Shown here: piece after piece, positions 4,057 through 41,263 of the stretch
How positions within the stretch are numbered: position 1 is the stretch's first letter
Layout of the letters: each line of letters opens with the position of its first letter
Assembly: GCF_030013205.1 (NCBI RefSeq)
Contig: NZ_CP122648.1
DNA: 64,000 nt
From: Escherichia coli
GTDB taxonomy: Bacteria > Pseudomonadota > Gammaproteobacteria > Enterobacterales > Enterobacteriaceae
Strand: one strand, 5' to 3'
The notes under the pieces: generated by a model
Seen by the model: only the letters and a program-made list of their open reading frames with translations
Databases searched by the model: none
What the model was told of the DNA's origin: nothing
Position numbers and translations under genes: made by a program

Positions 4057-5307
4057 TTAACTGTCGGACGCTGTCACCTGCGGCGGCGTCTGGCGAAAAC
4101 GCCGCAACTCCACCAGCACCAGCAATAACAACACGCCGATAATCAACAAACCAAAACCGCTCGCGCTTGCGGAAGCAACCGGTGTCATCATCGCGCCCAA
4201 ACCGCCCAGCAGCGCCGCGCCTATGGCATCACCCGTCACGTTTTGTGCCGTCCACAAACCGTTAATCCGCCCTAACATCGCTTCCGGGGTTTGCGTTTGC
4301 AGCATTGTATATTGCAGCAACGAACTAACCGCGCTCAGCCAGCCGAACAGCGCCAGACAAACCACGCCTAAAATCCACATCGGCATCAAGCCAAACAGCC
4401 CAATGGCGAGGAACGATCCCAGCGTGGAGAGCAGCATCAATAACCCTGGTCGCGCGCTATGTGCCAGCTTCCCGCTGGTTAACGCGCCAATAGCCGCGCC
4501 GAGCGGGATCGCCGCATAGAGAAAACCAATCTGTGCCGCCGACATCTGCCAGTTGTCAGCCAGCGCCGGATACAGTACCCGCACCGCGCTCGCCATCGTC
4601 AATAAACCACCCAACAGCGCAATCCCTCCTACCAGCGGGCTGGCGAGCAGAAAACGAAATCCTGCCAGTAATGATTTCAACGGATGCTCACGCGGCTGCG
4701 GTGGCGGTGGCAACGCCGGAAGGCTTAACAACGGTAGCAAGGTAATAAACGTGCCCGCCGCCGCCAGCCCGTAGTTCCAGGCTACGCCGCCAGTCGCCAG
4801 CAGTAAACCACCAATCATAGGCGAAATCACCGATCCCAGGCGCACAGTCAACATGGTGATCGCCCCGGCCTGCATTAAGTTTTCACGCCCTACCAGTGCA
4901 GGTGTCGCCGCCAGTAGCGCCGTAACGCCAAGTGATGCGAAAAAACCATCCCATAAACCAAGTAAATAGATTGCCAACAATGACGGCTCCGGCAGCAGTG
5001 CATTAAGGCACAGTCCAATGAAGCCAATGCCACAGGTGCCGCGCGCCAGCAAAATCACTTTTTTGCGTTCATAGCGATCCGCCAGCACACCGCCGACCAT
5101 CAGGCCAACAAACATCGCGCCGCCGGTCAGCGTCACCGAAAGCCCCACCTGCCAGGTAGAATGCGTCATCATCTGGATCTGCACCGGCACCGCGACGCCG
5201 AGCAAACCCAGAGACACAATTGAGATAAAACGAGCGAGGAATACTGCACGAAACGCCGGGTGCGTTTTCAACAGGCTGAGGTTAAGCAGCCAGGATTGTT
5301 TATTCAT
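4057..5307 (-). CDS. entS: enterobactin exporter EntS (MFS transporter)
   Basis: 416-aa polytopic membrane [30 protein letters not shown]… recognised as EntS/YbdA. Confidence 0.95.
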
Positions 5308-5417: not shown

Positions 5418-6422
5418 ATGTCTGGTTCTATTGCCGTGACACGCGCCATTGCCGTGCCCGGATTGCTGTTATTACTGATTATCGCGACGGCATTAAGCCT
5501 GCTCATTGGGGCAAAATCACTCCCCGCTTTCGTAGTGCTGGAGGCCCTCTCCGGCACCTGCCAGAGCGCCGACTGCACCATCGTGCTCGACGCGCGACTG
5601 CCGCGCACCCTTGCCGGTTTACTAGCCGGCGGTGCGCTTGGCCTTGCCGGGGCGTTGATGCAAACCCTCACCCGAAACCCACTTGCCGACCCCGGCTTGC
5701 TTGGTGTGAACGCCGGAGCCAGCTTTGCCATTGTGCTGGGTGCGGCGCTGTTTGGTTACTCATCCGCGCAGGAACAACTGGCGATGGCCTTCGCCGGGGC
5801 GCTGGTGGCCTCATTGATTGTTGCCTTTACCGGCAGCCAGGGCGGCGGGCAGTTAAGTCCGGTGCGTTTAACCCTGGCGGGCGTGGCACTGGCGGCGGTG
5901 CTGGAAGGGCTGACCAGCGGCATCGCCCTGCTTAATCCTGACGTCTACGATCAGTTGCGTTTCTGGCAAGCCGGTTCGCTGGATATTCGCAATCTACATA
6001 CCTTAAAAGTGGTGCTGATCCCGGTGCTGATCGCCGGAGCAACCGCACTATTACTGAGCCGCGCGCTGAACAGTTTAAGCCTCGGCAGTGACACCGCGAC
6101 GGCGCTGGGTAGTCGCGTGGCGCGCACACAGTTGATTGGTCTGCTGGCGATTACCGTGCTTTGTGGTAGTGCGACGGCGGTAGTTGGCCCGATTGCCTTT
6201 ATTGGCCTGATGATGCCGCACATGGCGCGCTGGCTGGTAGGTGCCGATCATCGCTGGTCGCTGCCCGTCACGCTACTCGCCACCCCTGCCCTGCTGCTGT
6301 TTGCCGATATCATCGGGCGGGTGATTGTGCCCGGCGAACTGCGCGTTTCTATAGTCAGTGCCTTTATTGGCGCACCGGTGCTGATCTTCCTCGTGCGACG
6401 TAAAACGCGAGGTGGCGCATGA
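5418..6422 (+). CDS. fepD: ferric-enterobactin ABC transporter permease FepD
   Basis: ORF 5406..6422; start chosen at MSGSIAVTR (334 aa); FecCD-family permease sequence. Confidence 0.93.
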   Translation: MSGSIAVTRAIAVPGLLLLLIIATALSLLIGAKSLPAFVVLEALSGTCQSADCTIVLDARLPRTLAGLLAGGALGLAGALMQTLTRNPLADPGLLGVNAGASFAIVLGAALFGYSSAQEQLAMAFAGALVASLIVAFTGSQGGGQLSPVRLTLAGVALAAVLEGLTSGIALLNPDVYDQLRFWQAGSLDIRNLHTLKVVLIPVLIAGATALLLSRALNSLSLGSDTATALGSRVARTQLIGLLAITVLCGSATAVVGPIAFIGLMMPHMARWLVGADHRWSLPVTLLATPALLLFADIIGRVIVPGELRVSIVSAFIGAPVLIFLVRRKTRGGA

Positions 6423-34038: not shown

Positions 34039-35925
34039 ATGTCAACCGGATTACGTTTCACACTGGAAGTGGACGGCCTGCCGCCGGATGCTTTTGCGGT
34101 GGTTTCCTTTCATCTGAACCAGTCACTCTCTTCGCTCTTTTCCCTCGATCTCTCCCTGGTCAGCCAGCAGTTTCTCTCCCTTGAATTTGCGCAGGTGCTG
34201 GACAAAATGGCCTACCTGACGATATGGCAGGGCGATGAAGTACAGCGCCGGGTGAAAGGCGTGGTGACCTGGTTTGAACTCGGGGAGAACGACAAAAACC
34301 AGATGCTGTACAGCATGAAGGTGCACCCGCCGCTGTGGCGTGCCGGTCTGCGCCAGAACTTCCGTATCTTCCAGAACGAGGACATCAAAAGCATCCTCGG
34401 CACGATGTTGCAGGAAAACGGGGTGACCGAATGGAGTCCGCTGTTCAGCGAGCCGCATCCTTCCCGTGAGTTTTGTGTCCAGTACGGTGAGACTGATTAC
34501 GATTTCCTGTGCCGGATGGCGGCGGAGGAAGGCATCTTCTTTTATGAGGAGCATGCTTACAAAAGTACCGACCAGAGCCTGGTGCTGTGCGACACAGTCC
34601 GCCATCTGCCCGAATCTTTTGAAATCCCATGGAACCCGAACACCCGTACCGAGGTGAGCACCCTCTGCATCAGCCAGTTCCGCTACAGCGCACAAATCCG
34701 CCCTTCTTCCGTGGTGACCAAAGACTACACCTTTAAACGCCCCGGCTGGGCCGGACGTTTTGAACAGGAAGGCCAGCACCAGGACTACCAGCGCACGCAG
34801 TATGAAGTGTATGACTACCCCGGACGTTTCAAGGGTGCCCACGGGCAGAACTTTGCCCGCTGGCAGATGGACGGCTGGCGAAACAATGCAGAAACCGCGC
34901 GGGGAATGAGTCGTTCGCCGGAGATATGGCCGGGACGACGAATTGTGCTGACGGGGCATCCGCAGGCGAACCTGAACCGGGAATGGCAGGTGGTGGCAAG
35001 TGAACTGCACGGCGAACAGCCACAGGCGGTGCCAGGACGGCAGGGAGCGGGGACGGCGCTGGAGAACCATTTTGCGGTGATCCCGGCAGACAGAACATGG
35101 CGACCACAGCCGTTGCTGAAACCGCTGGTCGACGGCCCGCAGAGCGCTGTCGTGACAGGACCGGCAGGCGAGGAAATCTTCTGCGACGAACATGGTCGCG
35201 TGCGGGTGAAGTTCAACTGGGACCGTTATAACCCGGCAGACCAAGACAGTTCGTGCTGGATCCGTGTGGCACAGGCGTGGGCAGGCACCGGTTTTGGCCA
35301 CCTGGCGATACCACGTGTGGGTCAGGAAGTCATTGTGGACTTCCTCAACGGCGATCCGGACCAGCCGATCATTATGGGGCGCACCTACCACCAGGAAAAC
35401 CGCCCCCCCGGCAGCCTGCCGGGAACAAAGACGCAGATGACCATCCGCTCCAAAACGTACATGGGCAGCGGATTTAATGAGCTGAAGTTTGATGATGCGA
35501 CAGGGAGAGAACAGGTCTACATCCACGCGCAGAAGAACATGGATACCGAAGTGCTCAACGACCGTACCACCACCGTAAAACACGATCACCGCGAAACCGT
35601 AAAAAATGACCAGACGGTCACGATCCAGGAAGGTAACCGCCTTCTTACGGTGGAAAAAGGCCACAAGATCACCGGAGTACTGAAAGGGTCTTTATCTGAG
35701 GATGTCTTTCAGGACAGAGGCACGATTGCCGGTTCGGTGCATGTTGACGCTGTAAACAATGGTGGCGAAGGCGACGGTATACAGGCTTATACGGCGATTA
35801 AGGAAATTTTGCTGGCCGTGGAGGAAAGCAAAATTGCGCTGACGCCGGATGGCATTCAGCTACAGGTCGGGGAATCGACGGTACCGGATCACAGGTGTCA
35901 GTCACACCGACGGGATCCGGCTTAA
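34039..35925 (+). CDS. vgrG: VgrG (Rhs-element Vgr protein / T6SS spike), 3' end replaced out of frame at a deletion junction near 35880
   Basis: 628-aa ORF with gp27/gp5-like VgrG sequence (…GRVRVKFNWDRYNPADQDSSCWIRVAQAWAG…IALTPDGIQLQVGESTV) ending in an unrelated 15-aa tail PDHRCQSHRRDPA. Confidence 0.8.
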   Translation: MSTGLRFTLEVDGLPPDAFAVVSFHLNQSLSSLFSLDLSLVSQQFLSLEFAQVLDKMAYLTIWQGDEVQRRVKGVVTWFELGENDKNQMLYSMKVHPPLWRAGLRQNFRIFQNEDIKSILGTMLQENGVTEWSPLFSEPHPSREFCVQYGETDYDFLCRMAAEEGIFFYEEHAYKSTDQSLVLCDTVRHLPESFEIPWNPNTRTEVSTLCISQFRYSAQIRPSSVVTKDYTFKRPGWAGRFEQEGQHQDYQRTQYEVYDYPGRFKGAHGQNFARWQMDGWRNNAETARGMSRSPEIWPGRRIVLTGHPQANLNREWQVVASELHGEQPQAVPGRQGAGTALENHFAVIPADRTWRPQPLLKPLVDGPQSAVVTGPAGEEIFCDEHGRVRVKFNWDRYNPADQDSSCWIRVAQAWAGTGFGHLAIPRVGQEVIVDFLNGDPDQPIIMGRTYHQENRPPGSLPGTKTQMTIRSKTYMGSGFNELKFDDATGREQVYIHAQKNMDTEVLNDRTTTVKHDHRETVKNDQTVTIQEGNRLLTVEKGHKITGVLKGSLSEDVFQDRGTIAGSVHVDAVNNGGEGDGIQAYTAIKEILLAVEESKIALTPDGIQLQVGESTVPDHRCQSHRRDPA

Positions 35926-38900
35926 ACTGACGTACCACGCCAGCGGCTACCTGAAAGCCATTCACCGCACGGATAACGGCATACAGACGCTGGCGACCTA
36001 CGAACAGGATGCGCGGGGGCGGCTGACAGAAGCGGATGCGCGGCTGGACTACCACCTGTTTTATGAGTACGACGCTGCGGACCGGATCATCCGCTGGTCC
36101 GATAACGACCAGACGTGGAGCCGTTTCACCTACGATGAACAGGGCCGGTGCGTGAATGTCACCGGGGCGGAGGGCTATTACAACGCCACGCTGGACTATG
36201 GTGACGGCTGCACCACCGTGACGGACGGCAAGGGCATTCACCGTTATTACTATGATCCTGACGGCAATATTCTGCGGGAAGCAGCGCCGGACGGCAGCAC
36301 CACCATGTATGAATGGGATGAATTCCATCACCTGCTGGCCCGTCACTCCCCTGCCGGGCGGGTGGAGAAATTTGAATACAACGCCGCACACGGTCAGTTA
36401 AGCCGTTACACGGCGGCAGACGGCGCGGAGTGGCAGTACCGCTATGATGAGCGCGGCCTGCTCAGCAACATCACCGACCCTGCCGGGCAGACGTGGACAC
36501 AGCAGTGTGATGAACGCGGCCTGCCGGTAAGTCTGGTGTCGCCACAGGGCGAAGAGACCCGGCTGGCATACACCGCTCAGGGGCTGCTGTCGGGAATATT
36601 CCGCCAGGATGAACGGCGTCTGGGCATAGAGTACGACCACCACAACCGGCCGGAAACACTCACCGACGTGATGGGCCGTGAACACCACACCGAATACAGC
36701 GGTCACGACCTGCCGGTGAAGATGCGCGGCCCCGGCGGTCAGTCAGTGCGGTTACAGTGGCAGCAGCACCATAAACTGAGCGGCATTGAACGTGCTGGAA
36801 CCGGCGCGGAAGGATTCCGCTACGACCGCCACGGCAACCTGCTGGCCTGGACGGACGGCAACGGCGTTGTCTGGACAATGGAATACGGCCCGTTTGATTT
36901 GCCGGTGGCGCGAACGGACGGTGAAGGCCACCGCTGGCAGTACCGCTACGATAAAGACACGCTGCAACTGACAGAAGTCATTAACCCGCAGGGTGAGTCA
37001 TATCTTTATGTTCTGGATAACTGCGGCCGGGTGACGGAAGAGCATGACTGGGGCGGCGTGGTCTGGCGTTACCGCTATGACGCCGATGGCCTGTGTACCG
37101 CCAGGGTCAACGGCCTGGAGGAAACCATCCTCTACAGCCGGGACGCCGCAGGCCGCCTGGCAGAAGTCATCACGCCGGAAGGCAAAACGCAGTATGCGTA
37201 TGACAAATCCGGCAGGCTTACGGGTATCTTCAGCCCGGACGGCACATCACAGCGCACCGGCTATGACGAACGCGGGCGGGTGAATGTCACCACTCAGGGC
37301 CGACGGGCCATTGAATACCACCACCCCGATGAACACACCGTCATCCGCTGTATCCTGCCACCGGAAGATGAACGCGACAGACACCCCGGTGAATCCCTGC
37401 TGAAAACCACGTACCGCTACAACGCCGCCGGAGAACTGACGGAGGTTATCCTGCCGGGGGATGAGACGCTGACGTTCAGCCGTGATGAGGCAGGACGTGA
37501 AGTGCTCCGGCACAGTAACCGGGGTTTTGCCTGTGAACAGGGCTGGAATGCAGCCGGCCAGTCTGTCAGCCAGCGCGCCGGATTTTTCCCGGAAGAAGCC
37601 ACATGGGGCGGGCTGGTTCCGTCACTGGCGCGGGAATACCGTTATGACAGCGCGGGCAATGTGTCGGCTGTCACCAGCCGGGAAGATTACGGACGGGAAA
37701 CACGGCGGGAATACCGGCTGGACCGGAACGGCCAGGTCACGGCGGTGACAGCCTCAGGCACCGGGCTGGGCTATGGCGAAGGCGATGAGTCCTATGGCTA
37801 TGACAGCTGCGGCTACCTGAAGGCGCAGTCTGCGGGCTGGCACCGGATAAGTGAAGAGACTGACCAGTATGCCGGAGGCCACCGGCTGAAACAGGCCGGA
37901 AACACGCAGTATGACTATGACGCCGCAGGCCGGATGGTCAGCCGCACCAGACACCGTGACGGCTATCGCCCGGAAACAGAGCGGTTCCGGTGGGACAGCC
38001 GTGACCAGCTGACCGGGTATTGCAGCGCACAGGGTGAGCAGTGGGAATACCGCCACGACGCCAGCGGCAGACGAACAGAGAAACGCTGCGACCGGAAGAA
38101 AATCCGCTTCACGTATCTGTGGGACGGCGACAGTATTGCGGAAATCCGGGAATACCGCGATGATAAACTGTACAGCGTACGGCACCTGGTGTTTAACGGC
38201 TTTGAGCTGATAAGCCAGCAGTTCAGCCGGGTACGGCAGGCGCATCCGTCGGTGGCCCCGCAGTGGGTGACACGGACGAATCATGCGGTGAGCGACCTGA
38301 CGGGCCGTCCGCTGATGCTCTTTAACAGTGAAGGTAAAACCGTCTGGCGACCGGGACAGACCAGCCTGTGGGGGCTGGCACTCAGCCTGCCCGCAGACAC
38401 CGGCTACCCGGACCCGCGCGGGGAACTGGACCCGGAAGCCGACCCCGGCCTGCTGTATGCGGGACAGTGGCAGGATGCAGAATCCGGGCTGTGCTATAAC
38501 CGGTTCCGGTATTACGAGCCGGAAACCGGGATGTACCTGGTGAGTGATCCGCTGGGGTTGCTGGGGGGTGAGCAGACTTACCGGTATGTGCCAAATCCGT
38601 GTGGGTGGGTTGATCCGCTGGGATTGGCTGCAAGTTCTAAAATCAGCAGTTTGATGGACTATATTGGCGATGGTCGTCGTGTTAGTGGGCATACGGGTTT
38701 CCTGGATGGGGTTCGTTTATCACGTAGTCAAATAAACAATATTGCTAAAGAAATGGAGAAGCTAGGAATTAAAGTAATAAGGAAAGCAGATAAATATTTG
38801 CCACCAAATGCTAGGGCAGCTTTTGATTATGGCCTTCGCAATATTTATCTTAGGAAAAATGCCACCTTATATGAGGTGTATCATGAAGTGATTCATGCTA

Positions 38901-39079
38901 AGCAATTTGCGAAAATTGGACGAGAAGCATACGAAGCACTAGGACGTTTATCTAGGGAGGAACACGTTCTAAATGAAATATTAAAAAGTAAAAATTTATT
39001 CAATGAAGCGGAAATAGCTCATGCCATAAAATATGTTGAGGGATTGAGAGAAAAATTCATGATGGGACTAATAAATTGA
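35849..39079 (+). CDS. Rhs protein remnant: YD-repeat core (5'-truncated, no PAAR/N-terminal region) plus a 150-aa variable C-terminal toxin domain
   Basis: 1076-aa ORF rich in YD repeats, core-end motif YVPNPCGWVDPLGL at about 38585-38626, then a low-GC C-terminal tail containing HEVIH; the only ATG is a fortuitous one inside vgrG-derived sequence. Confidence 0.8.
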   Translation: MAFSYRSGNRRYRITGVSHTDGIRLKLTYHASGYLKAIHRTDNGIQTLATYEQDARGRLTEADARLDYHLFYEYDAADRIIRWSDNDQTWSRFTYDEQGRCVNVTGAEGYYNATLDYGDGCTTVTDGKGIHRYYYDPDGNILREAAPDGSTTMYEWDEFHHLLARHSPAGRVEKFEYNAAHGQLSRYTAADGAEWQYRYDERGLLSNITDPAGQTWTQQCDERGLPVSLVSPQGEETRLAYTAQGLLSGIFRQDERRLGIEYDHHNRPETLTDVMGREHHTEYSGHDLPVKMRGPGGQSVRLQWQQHHKLSGIERAGTGAEGFRYDRHGNLLAWTDGNGVVWTMEYGPFDLPVARTDGEGHRWQYRYDKDTLQLTEVINPQGESYLYVLDNCGRVTEEHDWGGVVWRYRYDADGLCTARVNGLEETILYSRDAAGRLAEVITPEGKTQYAYDKSGRLTGIFSPDGTSQRTGYDERGRVNVTTQGRRAIEYHHPDEHTVIRCILPPEDERDRHPGESLLKTTYRYNAAGELTEVILPGDETLTFSRDEAGREVLRHSNRGFACEQGWNAAGQSVSQRAGFFPEEATWGGLVPSLAREYRYDSAGNVSAVTSREDYGRETRREYRLDRNGQVTAVTASGTGLGYGEGDESYGYDSCGYLKAQSAGWHRISEETDQYAGGHRLKQAGNTQYDYDAAGRMVSRTRHRDGYRPETERFRWDSRDQLTGYCSAQGEQWEYRHDASGRRTEKRCDRKKIRFTYLWDGDSIAEIREYRDDKLYSVRHLVFNGFELISQQFSRVRQAHPSVAPQWVTRTNHAVSDLTGRPLMLFNSEGKTVWRPGQTSLWGLALSLPADTGYPDPRGELDPEADPGLLYAGQWQDAESGLCYNRFRYYEPETGMYLVSDPLGLLGGEQTYRYVPNPCGWVDPLGLAASSKISSLMDYIGDGRRVSGHTGFLDGVRLSRSQINNIAKEMEKLGIKVIRKADKYLPPNARAAFDYGLRNIYLRKNATLYEVYHEVIHAKQFAKIGREAYEALGRLSREEHVLNEILKSKNLFNEAEIAHAIKYVEGLREKFMMGLIN

Positions 39080-39327
39080 TAAAACATAACAAAATAACTA
39101 TCGAAATGGCTCTTGACTTGGCTCGGCGTGAGTTAGAGTTAAGGGAAATTCCTTATATTAAAAATAGTCTACATGCCAATTACAGCTATAAATCTATTAG
39201 TATTGGTTCTAAGCAAGGTTGGTTAATTTCAGCGAAATTAAAAGTCCCTGAAACTTTTGAGCCTGATATGATATTTATTGAGATATCTGACCCAGAAGGT
39301 TTTATTAATATTCCTGATGTATTATAA
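39076..39327 (+). CDS. candidate Rhs immunity protein (small acidic protein encoded directly after the rhs CT)
   Basis: 83-codon ORF overlapping the rhs stop (TTGA); low-GC like the CT domain; start ambiguous (TTG at 39076 or ATG at 39106). Confidence 0.55.
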   Translation: MIKHNKITIEMALDLARRELELREIPYIKNSLHANYSYKSISIGSKQGWLISAKLKVPETFEPDMIFIEISDPEGFINIPDVL

Positions 39328-39441
39328 ACTACGTTAGAGGTTTTGTTATAAGGTAATCGGTTTCTTTACAGACCGCTGGCGTACATCGCACAGAGGCTGC
39401 TAACAGGGATATTCCTGCCTGGATGAACGCAAGGCAAGATC

Positions 39442-39753
39442 ATGGAAATAGTGATATACATCACTATTTCCATCCTGATTTTAGCTATCGCATTAATAAA
39501 ACAGCGGATGTTAGCCAATATCGAAACCAGTAACCCGTATCACGCCCAGTACATCCTGCGCCGCCGCGATGATTACCTGGTGCTGTTCGACCGTGATGCC
39601 CTGAGCTGCCGCTTCTTTTATGACGCCTTTCCGGGAATGCGTCTGCGCCACCAGGTGACCGGCGATACCGACGATGACCGCCTGGCACACAGCCCCGCAG
39701 ACCGGATGTATACAGGGAAAGATCATCAGAAGTACACTTTTTGTACTAAATAA
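39442..39753 (+). CDS. hypothetical small protein, possibly a chimeric or orphan fragment
   Basis: 103-codon ORF: hydrophobic AT-rich N-terminus joined to a GC-rich 3' portion (39530-39720) that looks displaced from another gene. Confidence 0.3.
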   Translation: MEIVIYITISILILAIALIKQRMLANIETSNPYHAQYILRRRDDYLVLFDRDALSCRFFYDAFPGMRLRHQVTGDTDDDRLAHSPADRMYTGKDHQKYTFCTK

Positions 39754-39779
39754 TTCACATTTTATGTTTAAAAATTGAG

Positions 39780-41060
39780 ATATTCCTCATTACCTGAAGC
39801 TGTTTTTTATTGCTTATACATGATCAAATACTCCTTACATAATTAAGGAGAACAAAATGGAACTTAAAAAATTGATGGAACATATTTCTATTATTCCCGA
39901 TTACAGACAAGCCTGGAAAGTGGAACATAAATTATCGGATATTCTATTGTTGACTATTTGTGCCGTTATTTCTGGTGCGGAAGATTGGGAAGATATAGAG
40001 GATTTTGGGGAAACACATCTCGATTTTTTGAAGCAATATGGTGATTTTGAAAATGGTATTCCTGTTCACGATACCATTGCCAGAGTTGTATCCTGTATCA
40101 GTCCTGCAAAATTTCACGAGTGCTTTATTAACTGGATGCGTGACTGCCATTCTTCAGATGATAAAGACGTCATTGCAATTGATGGAAAAACGCTCCGGCA
40201 CTCTTATGACAAGAGTCGCCGCAGGGGAGCGATTCATGTCATTAGTGCGTTCTCAACAATGCACAGTCTGGTCATCGGACAGATCAGGACGGATGAGAAA
40301 TCCAATGAGATTACAGCTATCCCAGAACTTCTTAACATGCTGGATATTAAAGGAAAAATCATCACAACTGATGCGATGGGTTGCCAGAAAGATATTGCAG
40401 AGAAGATACAAAAACAGGGAGGTGATTATTTATTCGCGGTAAAAGGAAACCAGGGGCGGCTAAATAAAGCCTTCGAGGAAAAATTTCCGCTGAAAGAATT
40501 AAATAATCCAGAGCATGACAGTTACGCAATGAGTGAAAAGAGTCACGGCAGAGAAGAAATCCGTCTTCACATTGTTTGCGATGTCCCTGATGAACTTATT
40601 GATTTCACGTTTGAATGGAAAGGTCTGAAGAAATTATGCGTGGCAGTCTCCTTTCGGTCAATAATAGCAGAACAAAAGAAAGAGCCAGAAATGACGGTCA
40701 GATATTATATTAGTTCTGCTGATTTAACCGCAGAGAAGTTCGCCACAGCAATCCGAAACCACTGGCACGTGGAGAATAAGCTGCACTGGCGTCTGGACGT
40801 GGTAATGAATGAAGACGACTGCAAAATAAGAAGAGGAAATGCAGCAGAATTATTTTCAGGGATACGGCACATCGCTATTAATATTTTGACGAATGATAAG
40901 GTATTCAAGGCAGGGTTAAGACGTAAGATGCGAAAAGCAGCCATGGACAGAAACTATCTGGCGTCAGTCCTTGCGGGGAGCGGGCTTTCGTAATCTTGCC
41001 CTGCCTGCTCACCTCCTCCAGGCACTTCCACTACATGATGACCTGCTCGGTGCCACCGCT
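39780..41060 (+). mobile_element. H-repeat (ISAs1-family) insertion element; boundaries approximate
   Basis: Contains the 378-aa H-repeat-associated transposase ORF typical of Rhs-linked H-rpt elements; terminal repeats not resolved. Confidence 0.5.
39857..40993 (+). CDS. H-repeat-associated protein / ISAs1-family transposase
   Basis: 378-aa [54 protein letters not shown]… recognised as the YhhI/YdcC/YbfD H-rpt protein family. Confidence 0.85.
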
Positions 41061-41263
41061 CCTTTTCACTATGACGTTAACCTCCCTGTCCCAGGACACC
41101 ATGCTTTTGTCTACATTCTACGCAAACGGCAACTTTTATAACCAGTGTAAAAATAACGTGCCGCAATAGTCATACCTATTAATGGTAAAAAGCTGTCACA
41201 ATTCATAAAAAACCTTAATATACGCCACCCTAAACATAACCAGCGTTAATGTAAGGTTTTTGT

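What the first reader, a model, noticed from the sequence alone, without database searches (positions are those of the whole stretch)
39442..39753. Small chimeric ORF between the rhs immunity gene and the H-repeat element
This 103-codon ORF starts in AT-rich DNA with a hydrophobic N-terminus and continues into a GC-rich stretch (about 39530-39720) whose composition matches neither flank. It looks like a displaced gene fragment, possibly an orphan Rhs-associated fragment joined to immunity-like sequence. Rhs loci commonly accumulate such orphan modules next to H-repeat elements.
Basis: inference. Interest (0 to 1): 0.3.

Follow-up and report, generated by a model that had tools for sequence, protein, structure and literature searches.

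The report
Accidental ORF across Rhs/IS debris
The 103-codon reading frame is real but is almost certainly not a gene: it runs by accident across the stub of an old insertion sequence, a 182-bp scrap of an Rhs toxin-carrier gene and the first bases of an intact ISEc1 element, which is ordinary debris for an E. coli Rhs locus.

Summary
An ATG-to-stop frame of 103 codons lies at 39442-39753. Its GC content steps from 37.5% to 61% to 28%.

The GC-rich part (39531-39712) is an Rhs fragment, 92-95% identical to intact rhs genes at this same cusS-nfrB locus in other strains. It is read in the native Rhs frame. It is an internal piece (residues 476-535), with no toxin tip and no immunity gene, so it is not an orphan module.

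The AT-rich, hydrophobic N-terminus is not immunity-like. It starts inside the terminal repeat and hairpin of a decayed second H-repeat (ISAs1-family, K-12 yncI-type) element. The same frame stops after 5 codons in the K-12 and STEC005 copies.

The last 13 codons and the stop lie inside the left inverted repeat of ISEc1 (39713-41003, 1291 bp).

The start codon and the only Shine-Dalgarno-like bases are buried in a -26 kcal/mol terminator-like hairpin. There are no Pfam, NCBIfam, PDB or Rfam matches. RefSeq marks only the Rhs piece, as a partial pseudogene. The arrangement is in 821 of 5426 complete E. coli genomes.

Verdict: junk ORF made by serial IS insertion and deletion. Low interest.

The parts
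39076..39327 (+). Presumed immunity gene of the Tox-MPTase4 Rhs toxin. RefSeq calls 39118-39327 as WP_001299578.1, hypothetical protein. It is context only, not part of the ORF.
   Evidence: It lies directly after the rhs stop, and the rhs C-terminus matches Pfam Tox-MPTase4. The immunity role is inferred from position only.
39366..39429 (+). Rhs core fragment A. This decayed ~64-bp scrap corresponds to core nt ~2339-2399 (native peptide LAYTAQGLLSGIF, from about residue 783). Its frame is now broken.
   Evidence: It is 82-85% identical to intact rhs cores (L005 6001-6061, L006 1286-1346). O157:H7 carries the same scrap, cut earlier (after 39397) by its own IS copy.
39430..39483 (+). Relic left end of a second, divergent H-repeat/ISAs1-family element (K-12 yncI type). 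It has the terminal repeat CAAGGCAAGATCA followed by a 14-bp perfect hairpin. The ORF's ATG (39442) and first 14 codons lie here.
   Evidence: It is 84-85% identical to the left end of the yncI-type element in K-12 (L007 3470-3515) and STEC005 (L004 4001-4055), which sits 63-80 bp upstream of the pseudogenised transposase. The terminal motif CA[GA]GG[AC]AAGATCA is shared by all seven H-rpt left ends aligned.
39442..39473 (.). Perfect 14-bp inverted repeat with a 4-nt loop, followed by CCTGATTTTA. It is terminator-like on the + strand. It puts an ATG on both strands and sequesters the ORF's start codon.
   Evidence: The RNA fold is -26.2 kcal/mol, z = -5.3, with 0 of 200 shuffles as stable. The stem is kept in K-12/STEC005 through one compensatory change (G-C to A-T) and one wobble.
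39484..39530 (+). AT-rich 47 bp of untraced origin, encoding codons 15-30. It may be the diverged continuation of the relic IS leader.
   Evidence: No homologue was found outside this same arrangement in E. coli genomes or plasmids. The genome contigs pattern scan gave only chance hits.
39531..39712 (+). Rhs core fragment B. This internal 182-bp piece (core nt 1425-1606, Rhs residues 476-535) is read by the ORF in the native Rhs frame (codons 31-90).
   Evidence: It is 95% identical to L002 7001-7180, 91.7% to L001 4312-4491 and 92.8% to L006 399-578, all inside intact rhs CDSs of the cusS-nfrB locus. Frame and junctions were checked. RefSeq annotates exactly this stretch as a partial pseudogene. 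It carries five private amino-acid changes, while four native cores are otherwise invariant here apart from one A-to-N change in L001.
39713..41003 (+). Intact ISEc1 (H-repeat element), 1291 bp. The transposase is at 39857-40993. The left inverted repeat CAGGGAAAGATCATCAG supplies the ORF's last 13 codons and its stop codon (39751-39753).
   Evidence: It is 97.5% identical to K-12 H-rptE/ydcC over 39712-41003. Homology with L002 and L006 begins at 39713. Pfam finds DDE_Tnp_1 and DDE_Tnp_1_assoc. RefSeq calls it an ISAs1-like element ISEc1 family transposase.
39442..39753 (+). The 103-codon ORF of the finding. It is a fortuitous read-through of the three unrelated pieces above.
   Evidence: with the dissection. 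No family or structure match.
39369..39473 (-). Opposite-strand 35-codon ORF (MEIVMYITISMILPC...). It starts in the same palindrome and reads outward from the relic IS end. Its first ~13 residues match K-12 YncO.
   Evidence: The similarity ends exactly at the relic IS terminus (39430). YncO was detected as a protein in K-12 (PMC6001520).

Best explanation
The ORF is a non-functional by-product of how this Rhs locus was assembled.

The order of pieces downstream of the toxin/immunity pair is:
1. a 64-bp scrap of rhs core (fragment A);
2. the first ~55-100 bp of a yncI-type H-repeat element;
3. an internal 182-bp scrap of another rhs core copy (fragment B);
4. an intact ISEc1.

The simplest history is as follows. 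Displaced rhs core copies lay downstream of the active gene, as the C-terminal-displacement model predicts. A yncI-type element inserted into one of them at about core nt 2399. ISEc1 inserted into another at nt 1606. A later deletion joined the leader of the first element to core nt 1425 of the second copy.

Fragment B retains its native open frame. The AT-rich IS leader upstream happens to hold an ATG (made by the element's terminal palindrome) and no stop in that frame. The frame then runs 13 codons into the ISEc1 inverted repeat before a stop. The result is a 103-codon ORF.

What is shown: the identity, frame and boundaries of each piece, apart from the untraced 47 bp at 39484-39530; the hairpin over the start site; and the lack of conservation of the N-terminal frame in related elements.

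What is inferred: the order of events, and that the ORF is not expressed as a functional protein.
For: - Fragment B matches intact rhs cores at 91.7-95%, at the same core position and in the same frame.
- ISEc1's boundaries are 39713-41003. Three independent comparisons put the left boundary at 39713 and the K-12 ydcC alignment fixes the right end. So the ORF's C-terminus and stop are IS sequence.
- The ORF's start lies in a relic IS end. It is 84-85% identical to the yncI-type left end and has the family's terminal motif.
- In K-12 and STEC005 the same frame reads MKIV[M/I]-stop. The hydrophobic N-terminus is therefore not a conserved coding sequence.
- The ATG and the AAGG upstream are paired in a -26.2 kcal/mol hairpin that scores as terminator-like.
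- No sigma-70-like promoter was found upstream on the + strand.
- There are no Pfam, NCBIfam, PDB or Rfam matches.
- RefSeq/PGAP calls only 39532-39711, as 'incomplete; missing N-terminus and C-terminus'.
- Fragment B carries 5 private amino-acid changes where four native cores are otherwise invariant apart from one A-to-N change in L001: 6 nonsynonymous and 3 synonymous differences against its closest relative, compared with 1 and 5 between native cores.
- Database variants of the ORF include a 3-aa deletion, a 29-aa deletion, frameshifts, a truncation by insertion and a replaced N-terminus. The commonest allele puts Asp in the middle of the only hydrophobic stretch (A15D).
- Strains with the same toxin/immunity pair lack the ORF. 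O157:H7 has its IS directly after 39397, and MB98 has an IS1 at 39540.
Against: - The arrangement is nearly identical (99% or more) in 821-836 genomes. Most copies of the ORF are therefore intact, and the data cannot distinguish recent common descent from weak selection.
- A 34-codon stop-free upstream extension with an early ATG is somewhat lucky: 1.4% of shuffles, tested post hoc.
- The related IS end does support translation of an outward-reading small protein in K-12 (YncO). This kind of IS stub is therefore not translationally dead in principle.
- The 47 bp at 39484-39530 could not be traced.
- No expression data were available.
- The dN/dS contrast rests on very few substitutions and is only suggestive.
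Confidence: 0.87

Rival explanations
1. It is a genuine small gene. A single-pass membrane peptide (N-terminal helix MEIVIYITISILILAIALI) would be fused to a 60-residue Rhs-derived domain, made from a promoter in the relic IS leader.
For: The frame is intact in most of the 821 genomes. It has a hydrophobic N-terminus. A weak AAGG lies 7 nt before the ATG. IS leaders normally carry a rightward transposase promoter (general IS biology). A neighbouring IS-junction ORF, YncO, is expressed in K-12.
Against: The N-terminal frame is closed after 5 codons in related elements. The majority allele has Asp in the helix, and indel and frameshift variants exist. The start site is buried in a -26 kcal/mol hairpin. 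No promoter-like site was found. There is no family match. The 60-residue Rhs piece is a slice lying between DUF6531 and the RHS repeats, not a matched Pfam domain; whether it could fold on its own was not tested. The C-terminus is IS inverted-repeat sequence. PGAP does not call it.
Confidence: 0.05
2. It is a functional orphan Rhs module. In this reading the stored core fragment can recombine with the main rhs gene to swap or re-arm the toxin, as shown for orphan rhs-CT/immunity pairs.
For: [quoted passage not shown] The C-terminal-displacement model expects core fragments downstream of rhs genes (PMC2935791).
Against: There is no toxin tip, no core-end motif and no immunity gene after the fragment, because ISEc1 follows immediately. 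Recombination with the main core would only delete two thirds of rhs together with the toxin and immunity genes. In this window the matching part of the main rhs (nt 1-1664) is itself deleted, so no partner exists.
Confidence: 0.03
3. The coding potential is irrelevant, but the relic IS hairpin (39442-39473 plus a T-run) has been co-opted as the transcription terminator or insulator at the end of the rhs-immunity operon. It would shield ISEc1 from read-through.
For: The consensus scan calls it terminator-like. The fold is very stable. The stem is conserved with a compensatory change between the window and K-12/STEC005. It lies 115 bp after the immunity stop. In K-12 it lies just after ydcD, in the same relative position.
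Against: The T-run is short (4 T in CCTGATTTTA). Conservation of the stem is equally explained by its being an IS-end feature inherited from the element. O157:H7 does without it. There are no transcript data.
Confidence: 0.15

Closest known systems
Dissociated rhs core fragments / 'C-terminal tips' downstream of rhs genes (Jackson et al. 2009, PMC2935791; E. coli W rhsW3 at b0570-b0569, PMC3032704)
   Same: It is at the same locus (cusS-nfrB), comes from the same rhs clade as the resident gene, and lies downstream in direct orientation. It is a product of rearrangement at an Rhs element.
   Different: Tips consist of the 3' end of the core plus a variable toxin and an immunity gene. This is an internal 182-bp slice (residues 476-535), cut on both sides, with nothing attached.
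K-12 yrhC (b4552), the pseudogene between yhhH and H-rptB (yhhI) in RhsB
   Same: It occupies the same position: a gene scrap wedged between the Rhs-associated downstream ORF and the left end of an ISEc1/H-rpt copy, and truncated by that IS.
   Different: yrhC is an AT-rich gene scrap (I read it as yibA/HEAT-like by eye; that was not tested) with no similarity to rhsB or the other rhs loci in the local database, and there is no sequence similarity to this ORF.
K-12 RhsE downstream region: ydcD - yncO - yncI (decayed H-rpt) - ydcC (ISEc1)
   Same: It has the same two kinds of H-repeat element in the same order and orientation. It has the same terminal repeat and hairpin at the yncI-type left end. 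A small ORF initiates in that palindrome.
   Different: In K-12 the yncI-type element is nearly full length and abuts ISEc1 directly. Here only its first ~55-100 bp survive, and an rhs scrap separates it from ISEc1. In K-12 the expressed ORF (YncO) reads outward on the other strand, and the + strand frame is closed.
ISEc1 / H-rpt (ISAs1 family), 1291 bp (Zhao et al. 1993, recalled from memory)
   Same: 39713-41003 is a standard intact copy, 97.5% identical to K-12 H-rptE. It has terminal inverted repeats and a 378-aa DDE transposase.
   Different: Nothing notable. There is no target duplication, and its left flank differs among strains while the IS and right flank are collinear. This suggests recombination rather than fresh transposition.

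Membership tests
Rhs core-derived sequence | Nucleotide homology to intact rhs core genes, collinear and in the native reading frame | tested here: met
   39531-39710/12 is 91.7-95% identical to rhs CDSs in L001, L002, L005 and L006 at core nt 1425-1606. The codon phase is identical.
Orphan Rhs module / C-terminal tip | The fragment includes the 3' end of the core (the hyperconserved core end that precedes the toxin) | tested here: not met
   The fragment ends at core nt 1606 of ~4500-4860, at residue 535, far from the core end. ISEc1 follows directly.
Orphan Rhs module / C-terminal tip | A variable C-terminal toxin domain | tested here: not met
   The ORF has no Pfam or NCBIfam domain. Its C-terminal 13 residues are encoded by the ISEc1 inverted repeat.
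Orphan Rhs module / C-terminal tip | A cognate immunity gene immediately downstream | tested here: not met
   The next gene is the ISEc1 transposase at 39857.
Rhs immunity protein (for the AT-rich N-terminal part) | Sequence relationship to a gene found directly after an Rhs toxin domain | tested here: not met
   The only homologues of 39429-39483 are left ends of yncI-type ISAs1 elements. The protein search found no protein sharing the N-terminus other than copies of this ORF.
ISAs1-family insertion sequence (ISEc1/H-rpt), for 39713-41003 | Length of about 1.3 kb, terminal inverted repeats and a single DDE transposase | tested here: met
   1291 bp. IRL is CAGGGAAAGATCATCAG and IRR (reverse complement) is CAGGGCAAGATTACGAAA. 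DDE_Tnp_1 scores E 6e-31. It is 97.5% identical to K-12 ydcC.
ISAs1-family insertion sequence, for the relic at 39430-39483 | The family's terminal repeat at the end, and homology to a known element's left end | tested here: met
   CAAGGCAAGATCA aligns with the invariant terminal motif of six other H-rpt left ends. It is 84-85% identical to the yncI-type left end, hairpin included.
ISAs1-family insertion sequence, for the relic at 39430-39483 | Transposase gene and right end present (a complete element) | tested here: not met
   Similarity stops by 39483. From 39531 the sequence is rhs core, and no transposase remnant is present.
YncO small protein | Full-length similarity to the 61-aa K-12 protein | tested here: not met
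   Only the first ~13 residues are shared, and only by the opposite-strand ORF 39473-39369. The similarity ends at the IS terminus.

The most novel reading that the evidence does not exclude
The stub of the yncI-type H-repeat element may not be inert. Its conserved terminal hairpin, with start codons on both strands, could be a small bidirectional expression or termination module. It would end the rhs-immunity transcript and launch short, lineage-specific peptides from whatever DNA it abuts: YncO in K-12, and the 103-aa (+) and 35-aa (-) ORFs here. At least one of these peptides would have a role, for example a membrane-anchored peptide affecting Rhs toxin/immunity function.
Probability: 0.04. 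Interest if true: 0.35.

Novelty: already known. Interest (0 to 1): 0.08.

Why it matters
It matters little for biology. The result shows that a plausible-looking 103-codon ORF next to an rhs toxin/immunity pair is assembly debris, and that older annotations naming it 'type IV secretion protein Rhs' should not be propagated.

It has three modest uses:
- It gives an exact, base-level dissection of the junk between the immunity gene and ISEc1 at the cusS-nfrB Rhs island, which is present in about 46% of complete E. coli genomes. This specific arrangement is in about 15%.
- It documents three different junctions between an H-repeat left end and rhs core sequence in the same few hundred bases (after core nt ~2399 and nt 1606 in this window, and a third inside fragment A in O157:H7). 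This is consistent with displaced cores being repeatedly hit by, or recombined with, these elements.
- It shows that the K-12 small protein YncO takes its N-terminus from an IS terminal palindrome, which suggests that YncO is also a junction accident.

Tried and rejected
- **Tracing 39484-39530 and an intact copy of the relic element.** A degenerate pattern over the terminal repeat and hairpin (AAGATCATGNAAATNGTGAT) was scanned against 100,044 species genomes. It gave 23 hits in unrelated taxa and no Enterobacteriaceae, about the number I estimated by hand for chance matches (not a tool output). A plasmid search found only the same 55-bp similarity. The origin of these 47 bp remains unknown.
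- **A shared target motif for H-rpt insertion.** GGATGWAC precedes both IS ends in the window, and a similar string precedes the IS in L002. I rejected this because the K-12 H-rptB, H-rptE and yncI left flanks and the O157 junction lack it.
- **Whether L002's IS left flank is a remnant of fragment A.** The alignment was too weak to claim this.
- **Whether fragment B came from the 2.23-kb deletion in this strain's own rhs.** The deletion ends only 58 bp downstream of fragment B's core coordinates. I rejected the link because strains with a full-length rhs carry the identical fragment, and the fragment is only 91.7% identical to the cognate core.
- **Whether the right flank of ISEc1 (41004-41121) continues the rhs core.** It has no similarity to the rhs cores examined. 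It is single-copy and locus-specific.
- **Family and structure searches.** Pfam, NCBIfam, PDB sequence and Rfam searches on the ORF or region found nothing.
- **Whether K-12 yrhC is a sequence homologue.** It is not; it is analogous only in position.

Full report
**Setting**

The window is E. coli. K-12 homology runs up to 33266 (the end of cusS) and resumes at 41122 (upstream of nfrB). The 7.9 kb in between is an island that K-12 lacks.

The island holds:
- vgrG;
- an rhs gene whose C-terminus is a Tox-MPTase4 metallopeptidase toxin;
- a small presumed immunity gene (39076/39118-39327);
- the ORF of the finding;
- an ISEc1 (H-repeat) element.

The cusS-nfrB (b0570-b0569) site is a recognised Rhs site, for example rhsW3 of E. 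coli W (PMC3032704). The island's right-end sequence is present once per genome in 2476 of 5426 complete E. coli genomes.

**Observation**

The ORF exists at 39442-39753, with 103 codons. GC content is 0.375 for 39427-39530, 0.61 for 39531-39712 and 0.28 for 39713-39856. The resident rhs core is 0.61.

**Dissection**

*The GC-rich part is rhs core.*
- Segment 39531-39710 matches the inside of intact 'RHS repeat-associated core domain' genes at 91.7-95% identity. The match occurs once per genome, and the matching copies examined (L001, L002, L005, L006) all lie at this locus.
- It corresponds to core nt 1425-1606, or residues 476-535 of the 1620-aa protein of strain CFSAN061763. That is just after the DUF6531 domain (393-455) and before the RHS repeats.
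- The codon phase is the same in the ORF and in the native gene, so codons 31-90 are simply the old Rhs frame.
- RefSeq annotates exactly this stretch as a partial pseudogene 'missing N-terminus and C-terminus'.

*The right junction is the left end of ISEc1.*
- Homology with other strains' IS copies and with K-12 H-rptE (ydcC, 97.5%) begins at 39712/39713 and ends at 41003. That gives 1291 bp, with IRL CAGGGAAAGATCATCAG and IRR CAGGGCAAGATTACGAAA.
- Native core sequence continues ...GGATGTACATGCTGGG, whereas the window reads ...GGATGTATA|CAGGGAAAG.
- The ORF's last 13 codons and its stop are therefore IS inverted-repeat sequence.

*The AT-rich 5' part begins inside a second, relic IS end.*
- At 39430 the sequence CAAGGCAAGATCA aligns with the terminal motif CA[GA]GG[AC]AAGATCA shared by all seven aligned H-rpt left ends.
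- Segment 39429-39483 is 84-85% identical to the left end of the decayed yncI-type ISAs1 element of K-12 RhsE and of STEC005. That sequence lies 63-80 bp upstream of the pseudogenised transposase.
- The transposase of that element is only 67.5% identical in DNA to that of ISEc1, so it is a separate lineage.
- The ATG of the ORF is the first triplet of a perfect 14-bp palindrome (39442-39473) that belongs to this IS end. In K-12 and STEC005 the same frame reads MKIV[M/I]-stop, so the hydrophobic N-terminus is not a conserved coding region.
- The remaining 47 bp (39484-39530) could not be traced.

*A further rhs scrap lies immediately left of the relic end.*
- Fragment A (about 39366-39429) is a decayed 64-bp piece of rhs core, nt ~2339-2399. 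The native peptide is LAYTAQGLLSGIF and here it reads LAYIAQRLLTGIF. Identity is 82-85%.
- The order is therefore: immunity gene, 38 bp, core(~2339-2399) | relic IS end, 47 bp of unknown origin, core(1425-1606) | ISEc1.

**Is it a gene?**

Evidence against:
- The N-terminal frame is not conserved in related elements.
- The start codon and the AAGG upstream of it are paired in a stem-loop of -26.2 kcal/mol. This gives z = -5.3, with 0 of 200 shuffles as stable, and the structure scores as terminator-like.
- No promoter-like site lies upstream on the + strand.
- There are no Pfam, NCBIfam, PDB-sequence or Rfam matches.
- The protein search returned only E. coli copies of this ORF and rhs fragments. 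Some carry the legacy name 'type IV secretion protein Rhs'.
- The variants include a 3-aa deletion (a 165-member cluster), a 29-aa deletion, frameshifts, a truncation by insertion and a replaced N-terminus. The commonest allele has Asp at position 15, in the middle of the only hydrophobic segment.
- Fragment B carries five amino-acid changes that are private to it. The four native cores examined are otherwise invariant across these 59 codons, apart from one A-to-N change in L001. That is 6 nonsynonymous and 3 synonymous differences against its nearest relative, compared with 1 and 5 between native cores. The numbers are few and only suggestive.
- Strains with the same toxin/immunity pair do without the ORF. 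O157:H7 has its IS directly after 39397. Strain MB98 has an IS1 at 39540.

The ORF's length needs no special explanation. Sixty codons are open by descent, and a stop-free 34-codon upstream extension occurs in 8.5% of shuffles.

Evidence for: the arrangement is at least 99% identical in 821-836 genomes. Intactness in most of them therefore reflects recent common descent and says little either way.

**Likely history (inferred)**

Displaced rhs core copies accumulate downstream of active rhs genes (C-terminal displacement model, PMC2935791). A yncI-type element inserted into one such copy, and ISEc1 inserted into another at nt 1606. A deletion then joined the first element's leader to nt 1425 of the second copy.

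ISEc1 has no target duplication. ISEc1 and its right flank are collinear among strains (96.8-98.1%), whereas the left flank differs: the window, L002 and O157 each have a different junction. This suggests that the IS has served as a recombination anchor rather than having transposed recently.

**Comparison with known features**

This is the familiar litter of Rhs elements. The closest analogue in kind is K-12 yrhC, a gene scrap between yhhH and H-rptB that is cut by the IS. The closest in sequence is the ydcD-yncO-yncI-ydcC region of K-12 RhsE.

It fails every test for an orphan rhs toxin module: there is no core end, no toxin and no immunity gene.

**Verdict**

The feature is ordinary, of a known kind, and of low interest.

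Noticed in passing
window 35881-35883 (junction); vgrG 34039-35925, rhs ORF 35849-39079: This strain's own vgrG-rhs pair carries a 2.23-kb deletion relative to CFSAN061763. It removes the last 57 nt of vgrG, the DcrB-related (Eag-like) gene and rhs nt 1-1664 (prePAAR, PAAR, DUF6531), with 3 bp of microhomology at the junction. The toxin and immunity parts are intact but the delivery part is gone. The junction occurs in only 14 of 5426 genomes; the 12 listed are all porcine ETEC or O139:H1 isolates.
   Followed up: yes
window 39473-39369 (- strand); K-12 L007 3320-3505: The opposite strand of the same palindrome starts a 35-codon ORF (MEIVMYITISMILPC...). Its first ~13 residues match K-12 YncO, a small protein detected by epitope tagging (PMC6001520). 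The similarity ends exactly at the relic IS terminus. YncO's N-terminus is therefore encoded by an H-repeat terminal repeat and hairpin read outward, and YncO itself looks like an IS-junction ORF.
   Followed up: partly
window 39442-39473; L007 3483-3514; L004 4014-4045: The 14-bp terminal hairpin of the yncI-type element is kept between this window and K-12/STEC005 through one compensatory change (G-C to A-T) and one wobble. It is followed by a short T-run on the inward strand. It may be an IS-end terminator against read-through. ISEc1 has only a 6-bp stem at the same place, and the O157 variant has none.
   Followed up: partly
L006 6001-6075 (O157:H7 TR01) vs window 39328-39397: In O157:H7 the same Tox-MPTase4 toxin/immunity pair is an orphan downstream of a different main rhs. 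A variant ISAs1 element sits directly after 39397, inside fragment A, so the 315 bp at 39398-39712 are absent. This is a third independent IS/rhs-core junction at this spot.
   Followed up: partly
L003 7041-7057 (strain MB98) vs window 39540: In strain MB98 an IS1 interrupts the ORF region at window position 39540, and the DNA beyond it through most of nfrB is missing.
   Followed up: no
window 41004-41121: A 118-bp GC-rich stretch (about 0.58) lies between the ISEc1 right end and the point where K-12 homology resumes. It is single-copy, is present in 2476 of 5426 genomes, and has no similarity to the rhs cores examined. Its origin is unknown, and it forms the island's right edge.
   Followed up: partly
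L032 5888-6235 (K-12 RhsB): By eye, K-12 pseudogene yrhC reads as the 5' part of a yibA-like (HEAT-repeat) gene. The frame resumes after the annotated stop and runs up to the H-rptB left end at 6235, so the IS truncated it.
   Followed up: partly
window 39484-39486 (codon 15): There is an A15D polymorphism. This window has Ala, whereas the largest database clusters of the ORF (331 and 165 members) have Asp in the middle of the hydrophobic stretch.
   Followed up: no
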